Source: a virus | Lineage: Duplodnaviria; Heunggongvirae; Uroviricota; Caudoviricetes | Length of the DNA: 43,699 bases | Virus record (IMG/VR): IMGVR_UViG_2851982317_000004 | Reading direction: 5' to 3' (one strand) | Part shown: positions 11,416 to 42,653 of the stretch, piece after piece | Position numbering within the stretch: position 1 is the first letter of the stretch | Layout of the letters: each line of letters begins with the position of its first letter | The notes under the pieces: generated by a model | What the model was told of the DNA's origin: nothing | The model's input: the letters and a program-made list of their open reading frames with translations, nothing else | Database searches by the model: none | Position numbers and translations under genes: made by a program

Positions 11416-11595
11416 ATGAAAAACGCATTGCAGTTTTTGTTTGTTGCGTTCTGGTTGTTCGCATCATGTATGCCCATCATCTTCACAGCAAGGTATATGG
11501 AAAAAATTGATGTTTTGATATTAATGTTTGGACATATAAATGCCCTTTTTTTAGGGGTGTTCATGGCGGTCACGTGCATTGAATACTGGCGGTAA
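11416..11595 (+). CDS. Small hydrophobic membrane protein (~59 aa)
   Basis: Internal ATG of track ORF 11377..11595 with GGGGGA upstream; two hydrophobic segments; AT-rich island. Confidence 0.4.
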   Translation: MKNALQFLFVAFWLFASCMPIIFTARYMEKIDVLILMFGHINALFLGVFMAVTCIEYWR

Positions 11596-11854
11596 ATACA
11601 GCGAACGCTATTGGTTTAGTTGGATATTTACTGTGCCGGACAAAAACGGTTTGCAGGGAAATCTTAGTTAAGTAGAATGACTGTGGGTGCTTGAGGCTAT
11701 CTGTCTCAGGCATGAACACCAAAAGGCAGATAGAGAAAAGCCCCAGTTAACATTACGCGTCCTGCAAGACGCTTAACATTAATCTGAGGCTCAATCCATG
11801 CTGAACACATGTAGGTTAGCCTCTTACGTGCCGAAAGGCAAGGAGAAGCAGGCT

Positions 11855-12010
11855 ATGAAGCAGCAAAAGGCGATGTTAATCGCCCTTATCGTCATCTGTT
11901 TAACCGTCATAGTGACGGCACTGGTAACGAGGAAAGACCTCTGCGAGGTACGAATCCGAACCGGCCAGACGGAGGTCGCTGTCTTCACAGCTTACGAACC
12001 TGAGGAGTAA
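11855..12010 (+). CDS. hok: Hok/Gef-family type I toxin (51 aa)
   Basis: MKQQKAMLIALIVICLTVIVTALVTRKDLCEVRIRTGQTEVAVFTAYEPEE has the Hok/Gef signature (single TM segment, conserved Cys, C-terminal AYE) and matches my recollection of E. coli HokD/RelF; long structured leader upstream and an intrinsic terminator just downstream. Confidence 0.85.
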   Translation: MKQQKAMLIALIVICLTVIVTALVTRKDLCEVRIRTGQTEVAVFTAYEPEE

Positions 12011-12078
12011 GAGACCCGGCGGGGGAGAAATCCCTCGCCACCGCTGATGTGTCAGGCATCCTCAACGCACCCGCACTT

Positions 12079-12106
12079 AACCCGCTTCGGCGGGTTTTGT
12101 TTTTTC
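12079..12106 (+). terminator. Intrinsic terminator after hok
   Basis: Stem AACCCGC / GCGGGTT with loop TTCG followed by a T-rich run. Confidence 0.6.
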
Positions 12107-12177
12107 TGGTCGTTCTGGTTTACAATCCATCCGTCAGCCTGAACAACTGGCACCTGCTGCGCCAGCAGAGAAAACAG

Positions 12178-16192: not shown

Positions 16193-16268
16193 GGCCCTTT
16201 AGCTCAGTGGTGAGAGCGAGCGACTCATAATCGCCAGGTCGCTGGTTCAAATCCAGCAAGGGCCACCA
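16193..16268 (+). tRNA. ileZ: tRNA with anticodon CAU, probably tRNA-Ile2 (lysidine type; ileX/ileZ-like), Met not excluded
   Basis: Hand-folded cloverleaf: acceptor GGCCCTT/AAGGGCC, D-arm GCTC/GAGC, anticodon loop CTCATAA, T-arm GCTGG-TTCAAAT-CCAGC, encoded CCA; close to E. coli ileX as I recall it. Confidence 0.85.
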
Positions 16269-16365: not shown

Positions 16366-16442
16366 GCGTTGTTAGCTCAGCCGGACAGAGCAATTGCCTT
16401 CTAAGCAATCGGTCACTGGTTCGAATCCAGTACAACGCGCCA
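16366..16442 (+). tRNA. argO: tRNA-Arg (anticodon UCU, argU/argO-like)
   Basis: Hand-folded cloverleaf: acceptor GCGTTGT/ACAACGC, anticodon arm ATTGC-CTTCTAA-GCAAT, T-arm ACTGG-TTCGAAT-CCAGT, encoded CCA. Confidence 0.85.
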
Positions 16443-42069: not shown

Positions 42070-42653
42070 TGGCATTCAGAATGAGTGAACAAGCACGGAC
42101 CATAAAAATTTATAATCTGCTGGCCGGAACTAATGAATTTATTGGTGAAGGTGACGCATATATTCCGCCTCATACAGGTCTGCCAGCAAACAGTACCGAT
42201 ATTGCACCACCAGATATTCCTGCTGGCTTTGTGGCTGTTTTCAACAGTGATGAGGCATCGTGGCATCTCGTTGAAGACCATCGGGGTAAAACGGTTTATG
42301 ACGTAGCGTCAGGGGACGAGTTATTTATTTCTGAACTCGGTCCGTTACCGGAAAATGTTACCTGGTTATCGCCGGAAGGGGAGTTTCAGAAGTGGAACGG
42401 CACAGCCTGGGTGAAGGATACGGAAGCAGAAAAACTGTTCCGGATCCGGGAGGCGGAAGAAACAAAAAACAACCTGATGCAGGTAGCCAGTGAGCATATT
42501 GCGCCGCTTCAGGATGCTGCAGATCTGGAAATTGCAACGGAGGAAGAAACCTCATTGCTGGAAGCCTGGAAAAAGTATCGGGTGTTGCTGAACCGTGTTG
42601 ATACATCAACTGCACCTGATATTGAGTGGCCTACGAACCCTGTCAGGGAGTAA
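42069..42653 (+). CDS. tfa: Tail fibre assembly protein Tfa
   Basis: 194 aa; ATG overlaps the stf stop (TAATG); colinear with lambda Tfa as I recall it (MAFRMSEQ..., C-terminal IAPLQDA...IEWP). Confidence 0.85.
42492..42653 (+). repeat. Direct repeat copy 1 (tfa 3' end)
   Basis: About 160 bp highly similar to 43541..43699 (the reading frame is preserved in both copies). Confidence 0.7.

What the first reader, a model, noticed from the sequence alone, without database searches (positions are those of the whole stretch)
11600..12110. Hok/Gef-family type I toxin locus inside the prophage nin-like region
A 51 aa Hok-type toxin is encoded at 11855..12010, with a ~250 nt structured leader upstream and an intrinsic terminator (12079-12106) downstream. 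An in-frame ATG at 11798 would add 19 codons (mok-like overlap or a spurious extension). An antisense Sok-like RNA would be expected opposite roughly 11760-11860 but cannot be confirmed by eye. A type I toxin-antitoxin on a prophage could stabilise the element or act in abortive infection.
Basis: partly seen in the sequence, partly recalled or inferred. Interest (0 to 1): 0.5.

Follow-up and report, generated by a model that had tools for sequence, protein, structure and literature searches.

The report
Complete hokD/mok/sok toxin–antitoxin locus
This is an ordinary, already well-described hok/sok-type RNA-controlled toxin–antitoxin cassette sitting in the early (nin-like) region of a lambdoid E. 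coli prophage. It is the complete version of the hokD gene that survives only as a truncated remnant in E. coli K-12.

Summary
The ORF at 11855-12010 encodes a 51-aa Hok/Gef toxin (Pfam PF01848, E 1.2e-23). It is 100% identical to E. coli K-12 HokD (RelF) and 92% identical to HokW of phage 933W/Sp5.

The leader matches Rfam RF01794 (118.9 bits, 11685-11860). All canonical hok/sok parts can be placed:
- hok promoter, 11650-11678
- mRNA, 11685-12106
- tac (11685-96) pairing with fbi (12060-72), supported by compensatory changes in relatives
- ucb, mok Shine-Dalgarno and dcb switch elements
- in-frame mok ORF from 11798
- terminator, 12079-12106
- antisense Sok-like gene on the minus strand: -35 at 11841-36, -10 at 11818-13, RNA about 11806 to 11736

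The leader is about 170 nt, not about 250. Sok lies about 40 nt further left than guessed.

The Sok RNA differs from the experimentally validated SokW by one loop base, and its promoter is identical. The K-12 copy keeps only 11841-12106, so this copy is complete. At least 80% of the region is present in 3818 of 5426 complete E. coli genomes, where it is annotated hokD. Verdict: already known, low interest.

The parts
11650..11678 (+). hok mRNA promoter: -35 TTTGCA (11650-55), 17-nt spacer, -10 TAGAAT (11673-78)
   Evidence: Promoter scan, 9 of 12 matches. The -10 lies 7 nt before the first base of the Rfam model match at 11685. A -10-like hexamer sits at the same distance from the GGG start in relatives (alignment A3).
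11685..12106 (+). Full-length hok (hokD-type) mRNA, about 422 nt
   Evidence: Bounded by the promoter and Rfam start at the 5' end and the terminator at the 3' end. MFE -173 kcal/mol, z = -8.1 against shuffles.
11685..11696 (+). tac (translational activator element), GGGTGCTTGAGG
   Evidence: Pairs with 12060-12072 in the MFE, base-pair probability at least 0.97. A 12-bp tac-fbi duplex is present in all 32 relatives with an intact leader, with compensatory changes. It pairs with ucb in the 3'-truncated fold and with the sequence just downstream in the nascent 36-nt transcript.
11739..11744 (+). ucb / anti-SD (AGCCCC)
   Evidence: Pairs with the mok SD (11786-91) in the full-length fold and with tac in the truncated fold. 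Nearly invariant in A3.
11736..11806 (-). Sok-like antisense RNA (about 71 nt): 5' single-stranded tail covering the mok start codon, then a long hairpin and a U-run
   Evidence: Aligns with the annotated 71-nt sokW of phage 933W, with 1 difference in the apical loop at 11763. Folds at -36.2 kcal/mol, z = -6.0. Transcription was not tested here.
11813..11841 (-). Sok promoter: -35 TTGCCT (11841-11836), 17-nt spacer, -10 TAACCT (11818-11813); start at G 11806
   Evidence: Read from the minus strand. The 39-nt string 11810-11848 is identical in 933W. Takada et al. abolished sokW antitoxin activity by mutating exactly this -10 (primers YO-421/422, PMC8621323). It falls below the generic scan threshold, with only 3 of 6 matches in the -10.
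11786..11789 (+). mok Shine-Dalgarno GAGG
   Evidence: Lies 8 nt upstream of ATG 11798. A GAGG is seen upstream of the mok ATG in all 33 relatives that have one. Sequestered by ucb in the full-length fold and by dcb in the truncated fold.
11798..12010 (+). mok-like ORF (70 codons, in frame with hok)
   Evidence: ORF list. Annotated mokW at the homologous position in 933W. The ATG is conserved in 33 of 34 intact leaders, while the frame relative to hok varies (0, +1 or +2), so initiation rather than the peptide is what is conserved.
11818..11823 (+). dcb (downstream complementary box), overlapping the Sok -10
   Evidence: Pairs with the mok SD region 11786-91 in the 3'-truncated fold, forming the Sok-target hairpin.
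11855..12010 (+). hok (hokD) toxin gene, 51 aa; SD GGAG at 11842-45
   Evidence: Pfam PF01848, E 1.2e-23. 100% identical to K-12 HokD and 92% to HokW. Annotated hokD in a 100%-identical genome.
11993..11998 (+). TACGAA: Tyr47 codon plus GAA, a candidate TadA A-to-I editing site (Tyr to Cys)
   Evidence: Invariant at nucleotide level in all 39 aligned loci. The flanking 3-bp arms show compensatory changes but are thermodynamically weak. K-12 hokD mRNA is reported to be edited at 6% (PMC12214031). Editing was not tested here.
12060..12072 (+). fbi (fold-back inhibitory element), CCTCAA(C)GCACCC
   Evidence: Pairs with tac with one bulged C. Covaries with tac at pair 4 (U-A 25, C-G 9, U-G 3 rows, none unpaired) and at pair 12 (G-C / A-U).
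12079..12106 (+). Intrinsic terminator of the hok mRNA
   Evidence: Stem of 7 bp (5 G-C), loop of 4, then TTGTTTTTTC. Retained in the K-12 hokD copy.

Best explanation
Identity. The region is a complete hok/mok/sok-family type I toxin-antitoxin cassette of the hokD/hokW type. It is carried as an autonomous unit, with its own promoter and terminator, in the nin-like early region of a lambdoid (Qin/Rac-like) E. coli prophage.

Mechanism, inferred by homology and in-silico folding.
- A constitutive promoter makes a roughly 422-nt hok mRNA.
- While nascent, its 5' tac element is held in a metastable hairpin.
- In the full-length RNA, tac pairs with the 3' fbi element and the mok Shine-Dalgarno is sequestered by ucb. 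This form is neither translated nor bound by Sok.
- Slow 3' trimming removes fbi. tac then pairs with ucb, and the mok SD moves into a hairpin with dcb. This hairpin is the Sok target and allows mok translation, to which hok translation is coupled.
- A short, unstable antisense Sok RNA (about 11806 to 11736) pairs across the mok start region. It blocks translation and leads to RNase III cleavage.
- When Sok synthesis stops, the stable mRNA pool yields the 51-aa HokD peptide. The peptide inserts into the inner membrane and collapses it.

Physiological role, inferred (about 0.4-0.5). As shown for the near-identical hokW-sokW of Sp5, Sok is lost on prophage induction and Hok speeds host shutdown, lysis and phage release. 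Stabilisation of the prophage or exclusion of other phages are possible additional effects.

What is shown and what is not. Shown here: sequence identity and homology, placement of all elements, predicted alternative folds, and covariation. Not shown here: transcription of either RNA, 3' processing, toxicity, or any phenotype.
For: - Toxin: Pfam HOK_GEF E 1.2e-23; PHROG 251, 2.8e-33; 100% identical to K-12 HokD and 92% to HokW.
- Leader: Rfam RF01794, 118.9 bits, full model 1-157.
- Relatedness: 93% DNA identity over 11642-12082 to the 933W locus annotated mokW/hokW/sokW. 100% DNA identity to E. coli chromosomes annotated hokD.
- Ends of the transcript: promoter and terminator scans.
- Folds: the full-length fold has tac-fbi (probability at least 0.97) and ucb-SDmok. 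The truncated fold has tac-ucb and SDmok-dcb. The nascent transcript forms a metastable hairpin. These match the R1 model as summarised in PMC9841398.
- Covariation: tac-fbi is kept in 32 of 32 intact relatives with compensatory changes. The mok ATG and SD are conserved in 33 of 34.
- Sok: the promoter string is identical to that of sokW. For sokW, the RNA was detected by Northern blot, -10 mutations abolished antitoxin activity, HokW was toxic and located in the inner membrane, and deleting the locus halved phage release (PMC8621323).
Against: - No expression data exist for this particular copy.
- The Sok -10 (TAACCT) is weak by consensus and missed by the generic scan.
- Chromosomal hok loci tested earlier did not mediate post-segregational killing, as cited in the preprint 10.1101/2025.08.07.668861.
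- HokD carries Tyr, not Cys, at position 47, and K-12 hokD mRNA is edited at only 6%, so toxicity may be attenuated.
- The lysis-helper role was shown for a locus at a different map position (near attR of Sp5/933W) and was only a two-fold effect.
- NCBIfam Hok models score below their curated cut-offs.
Confidence: 0.9

Rival explanations
1. Silent relic. The cassette is structurally intact but physiologically inert, like the chromosomal hok loci of K-12. It is carried along by phage recombination without giving any phenotype.
For: [quoted passage not shown] K-12 hokD is a truncated remnant. Degenerate copies exist: L006 has a decayed tac, and L044 and L048 have frameshifted hok genes. Tyr47 needs RNA editing to become Cys, and editing is reported at 6%.
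Against: All regulatory elements are intact and under visible constraint: compensatory tac-fbi changes, a conserved mok ATG and SD, and an invariant TACGAA. The near-identical hokW-sokW is toxic, is regulated, and affects phage release. At least 80% of the region is kept in 3818 of 5426 E. coli genomes.
Confidence: 0.1
2. The main role is addiction (post-segregational killing). Cells that lose the prophage lose the unstable Sok but keep the stable hok mRNA, and die, which stabilises the prophage.
For: This is the classical function of plasmid hok/sok, and the same RNA architecture is present here. hok genes are about four-fold enriched in prophages (preprint).
Against: Integrated prophages are not lost by segregation. 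Chromosomal hok loci failed post-segregational killing tests. In Sp5, deleting hokW-sokW had no effect on growth without induction, and the phenotype that was seen was at induction.
Confidence: 0.2
3. The main role is abortive infection or superinfection exclusion. A lytic phage that shuts off host transcription depletes Sok, so Hok kills the cell before the invader matures.
For: R1 hok/sok on a high-copy plasmid reduced T4 plating by 42% and plaque size by about 85% (cited in PMC8621323). Prophage 'moron' positions often hold defence genes. PHROG files the family under moron/host takeover.
Against: There is no PADLOC model hit for Hok or its neighbours. The preprint found no enrichment of hok near defence systems. 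The R1 effect is weak and was seen at high copy number. There are no data for hokD/hokW.
Confidence: 0.15

Closest known systems
hokW-mokW-sokW of Stx2 phage 933W / Sakai prophage Sp5
   Same: 93% DNA identity over 11642-12082. The toxin is 92% identical. The mok ORF has the same length and frame. Sok RNA is 70 of 71 nt identical. The Sok promoter string, tac and fbi are identical. This relative has been characterised experimentally (PMC8621323).
   Different: Four C-terminal residues differ (TAYEPEE here against VDYESEK). The 3' end beyond fbi differs: the terminator at 12079-12106 is not shared with 933W. The map position differs: the nin-like region here, against the right end near attR in 933W.
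hokD (relF) of E. coli K-12 cryptic prophage Qin
   Same: The toxin is 100% identical. The DNA is near-identical over 11841-12106, including the hok SD, ORF, fbi and terminator. The neighbourhood is the same type, upstream of the DUF968/YdfU and Q-like genes.
   Different: In K-12, relBE abuts the hok SD. The promoter, tac, ucb, mok start, Sok target and Sok -10 are all missing, and no Rfam sok hit is found. The window copy is the complete form.
hok/sok of plasmid R1 and IncF plasmids (archetype)
   Same: The element order is the same, and the predicted conformational switch is the same: tac/fbi, ucb/SDmok, tac/ucb, SDmok/dcb. An IncF plasmid hok leader aligns element by element and hits the same Rfam model.
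   Different: The toxin is only distantly similar; HokW against R1 Hok is 44% identical according to PMC8621323. mok is in frame with hok here. The Sok hairpin carries a roughly 20-nt extension that is absent from the plasmid and hokC types. The carrier is a prophage, not a plasmid.
hokB/sokB and TadA-edited hok mRNAs
   Same: There is a conserved Tyr codon inside a TACG(AA) motif at the position where other Hok proteins have Cys.
   Different: The edited position is C-terminal (Tyr47 here), not Tyr29 as in hokB. The reported editing level for hokD is low, at 6%.

Membership tests
Hok/Gef toxin family (Pfam PF01848) | Profile match above the curated threshold | tested here: met
   82.9 bits against a cut-off of 22, E 1.2e-23, covering profile positions 1-42 of 42. 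PHROG 251, E 2.8e-33. NCBIfam Hok subfamily models score below their cut-offs (48.5 against 73).
Hok/Gef toxin family (Pfam PF01848) | Peptide of about 50 aa with an N-terminal hydrophobic helix and a conserved C-terminal part (RKDLCEV...TEVAVF..YE) | tested here: met
   The translation and alignment with 38 relatives show the conserved core.
Hok/Gef toxin family (Pfam PF01848) | Kills or arrests cells through inner-membrane damage when expressed | not testable with these tools
   Shown for HokW, which is 92% identical (PMC8621323).
[quoted passage not shown] | hok mRNA leader with the family's sequence and structure | tested here: met
   Rfam RF01794, 118.9 bits against a gathering score of 59, full-length model. 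The hit is on the hok-sense strand, so it validates the leader, not antisense transcription.
[quoted passage not shown] | Overlapping mok reading frame with its own SD upstream of hok | tested here: met
   ATG at 11798 with GAGG 8 nt upstream. Conserved in 33 of 34 intact relatives in varying frames. Annotated mokW in 933W.
[quoted passage not shown] | cis-encoded antisense Sok gene (promoter, roughly 65-70-nt RNA, terminator hairpin) opposite the mok translation start region | tested here: met
   The sequence elements are present and identical or near-identical to the validated sokW (PMC8621323). Actual transcription cannot be tested here.
[quoted passage not shown] | Long-range 5'-3' tac-fbi pairing that locks the full-length mRNA | tested here: met
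   12 bp with one bulge, base-pair probability at least 0.97. Present in 32 of 32 intact relatives with compensatory changes.
[quoted passage not shown] | Alternative ucb/SDmok, tac/ucb and SDmok/dcb pairings (the conformational switch), and the metastable 5' hairpin | tested here: met
   All are recovered in MFE folds of the full-length, 3'-truncated and nascent RNAs. This is in silico only. The ucb-SD pairs are mostly invariant, so covariation is weak.
[quoted passage not shown] | 3' exonucleolytic processing, RNase III cleavage of the duplex, and differential RNA stability | not testable with these tools
   Partial RNase III and Hfq dependence is reported for hokW-sokW.
hokD orthologue group | Protein identity with K-12 HokD and a Qin-like genomic setting | tested here: met
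   51 of 51 residues identical. The setting is upstream of DUF968/YdfU, RusA and Q-like genes. RefSeq annotates the identical DNA as hokD.
TadA-edited bacterial mRNAs | Target adenosine in a TACG motif presented in a tRNA-Arg2-anticodon-like hairpin loop | tested here: inconclusive
   TACGAA is invariant in 39 of 39 loci. The 3-bp flanking arms pair in 8 of 9 distinct variants, with compensatory changes, but the predicted stability is about 0 kcal/mol. Editing itself is not testable here.

The most novel reading that the evidence does not exclude
The cassette may act as a sensor of prophage induction through its orientation. It lies sense to the early rightward operon, with no predicted +-strand terminator between 7172 and its own terminator at 12079. 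It was co-oriented with the flanking early genes in all seven contexts examined. De-repressed early transcription would therefore run head-on into the weak Sok promoter and also flood the cell with Sok-target RNA. Either effect would extinguish Sok and release Hok early in the lytic cycle. This would explain the unexplained RecA-dependent disappearance of sokW RNA. TadA editing of Tyr47 to Cys could add a second, growth-state-dependent gate on toxicity.
Probability: 0.2. Interest if true: 0.45.

Novelty: already known. Interest (0 to 1): 0.12.

Why it matters
It matters little beyond correct annotation. RefSeq annotates only the hokD CDS in the identical genome. The mok frame, the Sok RNA gene and the regulatory RNA elements are left unmarked. 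The locus is useful as the intact reference form of hokD, whose K-12 copy lacks its promoter, tac, mok start and Sok. It is also a convenient natural case for two experiments: asking how prophage induction switches off Sok, and asking whether TadA editing tunes Hok toxicity.

Tried and rejected
- Loci in Python: run_python could not read most fetched loci; /data held only the window, the alignments and the two loci L001 and L137. All comparative work therefore went through DNA alignment outputs.
- Full tac-fbi helix in the count of structure pairs: it could not be counted in one register, because Photorhabdus and Pantoea copies lack the bulged C. I counted the six outer pairs with the tool and the whole helix with RNAduplex.
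- Generic promoter scan: it does not report the Sok promoter, because the -10 matches only 3 of 6. I relied instead on identity with the mutated and validated sokW promoter.
- NCBIfam: only sub-threshold Hok hits.
- PADLOC: nothing for Hok, the upstream 59-aa ORF or the downstream 92-aa ORF.
- 'Spurious extension' reading of ATG 11798: rejected, because the ATG and SD are conserved even where the frame differs.
- Leader starting at 11600: rejected, because homology and the promoter place the start at 11685.
- Structure prediction and large protein-database searches: not run, because the protein is identical to a named, characterised protein.

Full report

Yes. The ORF list shows a 51-aa ORF at 11855-12010 and the same frame extended to an ATG at 11798, giving 70 aa.

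- The 51-aa product matches Pfam HOK_GEF over the whole profile (E 1.2e-23, 82.9 bits against a cut-off of 22).
- It also matches PHROG 251 'MokW-like host killing' (E 2.8e-33).
- A scan of the whole window against Rfam places the 'sok' family RF01794 at 11685-11860 on the + strand, with the full model matched (118.9 bits against a gathering score of 59, E 1.2e-26).

None of this is a chance pattern.

**2. What it is**

The 511-bp region is 100% identical to chromosomes of several human E. coli isolates, where the CDS is annotated hokD. At least 80% of it is present in 3818 of 5426 complete E. coli genomes.

In the identical genome the locus lies in a prophage integrated next to potC. The gene order is integrase, excisionase, exonuclease, dicB, cI-like and Cro-like repressors, O-like and DnaC-like replication genes, Ea22-like, hokD, DUF968, RusA, DUF1133, two tRNAs, lysis genes and head genes. 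The 'nin-like region of a prophage' description therefore holds.

The protein is 51/51 identical to K-12 HokD (RelF) and 47/51 identical to HokW of phage 933W. Over 11642-12082 the DNA is 93% identical to the 933W locus. The authors of that record annotated mokW, hokW and a 71-nt antisense sokW there.

**3. Anatomy**

*Promoter and transcript start.* A promoter-like site, TTTGCA-17-TAGAAT, lies at 11650-11678. It puts the transcript start at about 11685, which is exactly the first base of the Rfam match. The leader is therefore about 170 nt, not about 250 nt. The sequence from 11600 to 11641 is not shared with 933W.

*Full-length mRNA.* The RNA from 11685 to 12106 folds far better than shuffles (-173 kcal/mol, z = -8.1).
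- Its first 12 bases (tac, GGGUGCUUGAGG) pair with 12060-12072 (fbi, CCUCAA-C-GCACCC) at a base-pair probability of at least 0.97.
- The mok Shine-Dalgarno (GAGG, 11786-89) is paired with AGCCCC at 11739-44 (ucb).

*3'-truncated and nascent RNA.* When the 3' end is removed (11685-12050), the prediction switches. tac pairs with ucb, and the SD region pairs with 11818-23 (dcb), forming a hairpin that presents the mok start region. The first 36 nt alone form a hairpin that ties up tac.

These three states are those of the published R1 hok model: a metastable nascent form, a closed full-length form and an open truncated form, as summarised in PMC9841398.

*Sok on the minus strand.* The sequence reads TTGCCT (11841-36), a 17-nt spacer, TAACCT (11818-13), then a G at 11806 seven bases downstream.
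- The RNA from 11806 has a single-stranded 5' tail complementary to the mok start codon.
- This is followed by a long hairpin and a U-run ending near 11736 (-36.2 kcal/mol, z = -6.0).
- This coincides with the annotated sokW.
- It differs from sokW by one base in the apical loop.

**4. Comparative tests**

I aligned the locus with 38 relatives from Escherichia, Shigella, Kluyvera, Pseudocitrobacter, Citrobacter, Pantoea and Photorhabdus genomes.

- *tac-fbi.* All 32 loci with an intact leader can form the 12-bp duplex at the homologous place. Pair 4 is U-A in 25 distinct rows, C-G in 9 and U-G in 3, and is never unpaired. Pair 12 switches between G-C and A-U.
- *mok.* The ATG and its GAGG are present in 33 of 34 intact leaders. 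The distance to the hok ATG is 57, 58 or 56 nt, so the frame differs between relatives. Initiation at that site, not a Mok peptide, is what is conserved, so 11798 is a mok equivalent and not a spurious extension.
- *Sok promoter.* The hexamers are TTGCCT or TTGACC, and TAACCT or TAATCT, in most relatives.
- *K-12 copy.* The K-12 Qin copy shares only 11841-12106. relE abuts the hok SD, and the promoter, tac, ucb, mok start, Sok target and Sok -10 are gone. It gives no Rfam hit. This agrees with the literature statement that hokD was inactivated by rearrangement (PMC12214031). The window therefore holds the complete form.
- *Viral contigs.* Of the 80 best IMG/VR contigs returned, all encoding the identical toxin, 47 carry the exact Sok-promoter string and 2 carry the K-12 junction.
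- *Plasmid archetype.* An IncF plasmid hok locus aligns element by element in the leader and hits the same Rfam family.

**5. How it most likely works**

By homology, Sok represses mok-coupled hok translation of the processed mRNA. Loss of Sok releases a membrane-damaging peptide.

Direct experiments exist for hokW-sokW, which has an identical Sok promoter and tac/fbi (PMC8621323):
- HokW arrests growth and localises to the inner membrane.
- sokW expressed from its own promoter neutralises it.
- Mutating the TAACCT -10 abolishes protection.
- Protection depends partly on RNase III and Hfq.
- After mitomycin C, sokW RNA disappears in a RecA-dependent way.
- HokW then appears about 1 h before the endolysin.
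- Deleting the locus delays growth arrest and halves phage release.

I therefore take 'helper of host shutdown and lysis at induction' as the most likely role here (about 0.4-0.5). Addiction and phage exclusion are less supported alternatives, and inertness is unlikely given the visible constraint on the RNA elements.

One caution applies. In 933W the cassette sits near attR, not in the nin region.

**6. Extra features**

TACGAA (Tyr47 codon plus GAA, 11993-98) is invariant at nucleotide level in all 39 loci. It corresponds to the TadA editing motif. K-12 hokD mRNA is reported to be edited at 6%, turning this Tyr into the Cys that other Hok proteins encode directly. The flanking 3-bp arms covary but are weak.

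In seven contexts the cassette is co-oriented with the flanking early genes: the window, K-12 Qin, 933W and four other phages. In six of these it lies upstream of DUF968/RusA/Q. No +-strand terminator-like site is predicted between 7172 and 12079. This prompts, but does not prove, the idea that early read-through transcription silences Sok.

**7. Comparison, novelty and verdict**

[quoted passage not shown] It is orthologous to hokD and near-identical to the characterised hokW-mokW-sokW. hok enrichment in prophages is already documented (preprint 10.1101/2025.08.07.668861).

Nothing categorically new is present. The only added value is the complete element map, and the point that RefSeq annotates just the CDS. 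Novelty: already known. Interest: 0.12.

Noticed in passing
window 11416-11595 (+): An unannotated 59-aa ORF with a good SD (GGGGGAATAATG) and two hydrophobic stretches, in a low-GC tract (36-39%) directly upstream of the hok promoter. It is not called by PGAP in the identical genome. It is conserved at 91-93% aa identity, again right next to hok, in three phage records (PhiR42_1, vB_EcoS-813R8, vB_EcoS-640R1). No Pfam, PHROG or PADLOC hit.
   Followed up: partly
window 42412-42610 (+): Full-length Rfam hit to the sRNA candidate family IS009 (RF02111, 225 bits, E 3e-55), near the end of the window.
   Followed up: no
window 16193-16265 and 16366-16439 (+): Two tRNA genes, annotated tRNA-Ile and tRNA-Arg in the identical genome. 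They lie between a DNA methyltransferase gene and the TerB/holin/lysis genes of the prophage.
   Followed up: no
L137 777-924 (IncFIB Salmonella plasmid CP074641.1): A group II intron D1-D4-7 match (111.6 bits) starts right after the stop codon of a plasmid hok gene, where the fbi and 3' UTR would be expected. An intron insertion may have displaced the 3' lock of that hok mRNA.
   Followed up: no
L018, L023, and hit H23: E. coli-type hokD sequence appears on tiny contigs of an Acinetobacter idrijaensis assembly (275 bp, 96% protein identity) and a Xanthomonas pisi assembly (431 bp, 100% protein identity). A 95.9%-identical locus appears in an 'Actinobacillus phage' record. These look like assembly contamination or host mis-assignment rather than real spread.
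   Followed up: no
L006, L044, L048 (E. coli / Shigella chromosomes): Decayed hok copies in the same genomes that hold intact ones. L006 has a degenerate tac and leader. L044 is a relE-adjacent copy with a frameshifted hok (15 aa). L048 is a hokC-type copy with frameshifts and a broken fbi.
   Followed up: partly
window 11949-11954 (+): A second TACGAA lies inside hok (codons Val32-Arg33, GTA CGA). Editing there would be synonymous, and the motif is not conserved in hokC-type or Kluyvera relatives.
   Followed up: no
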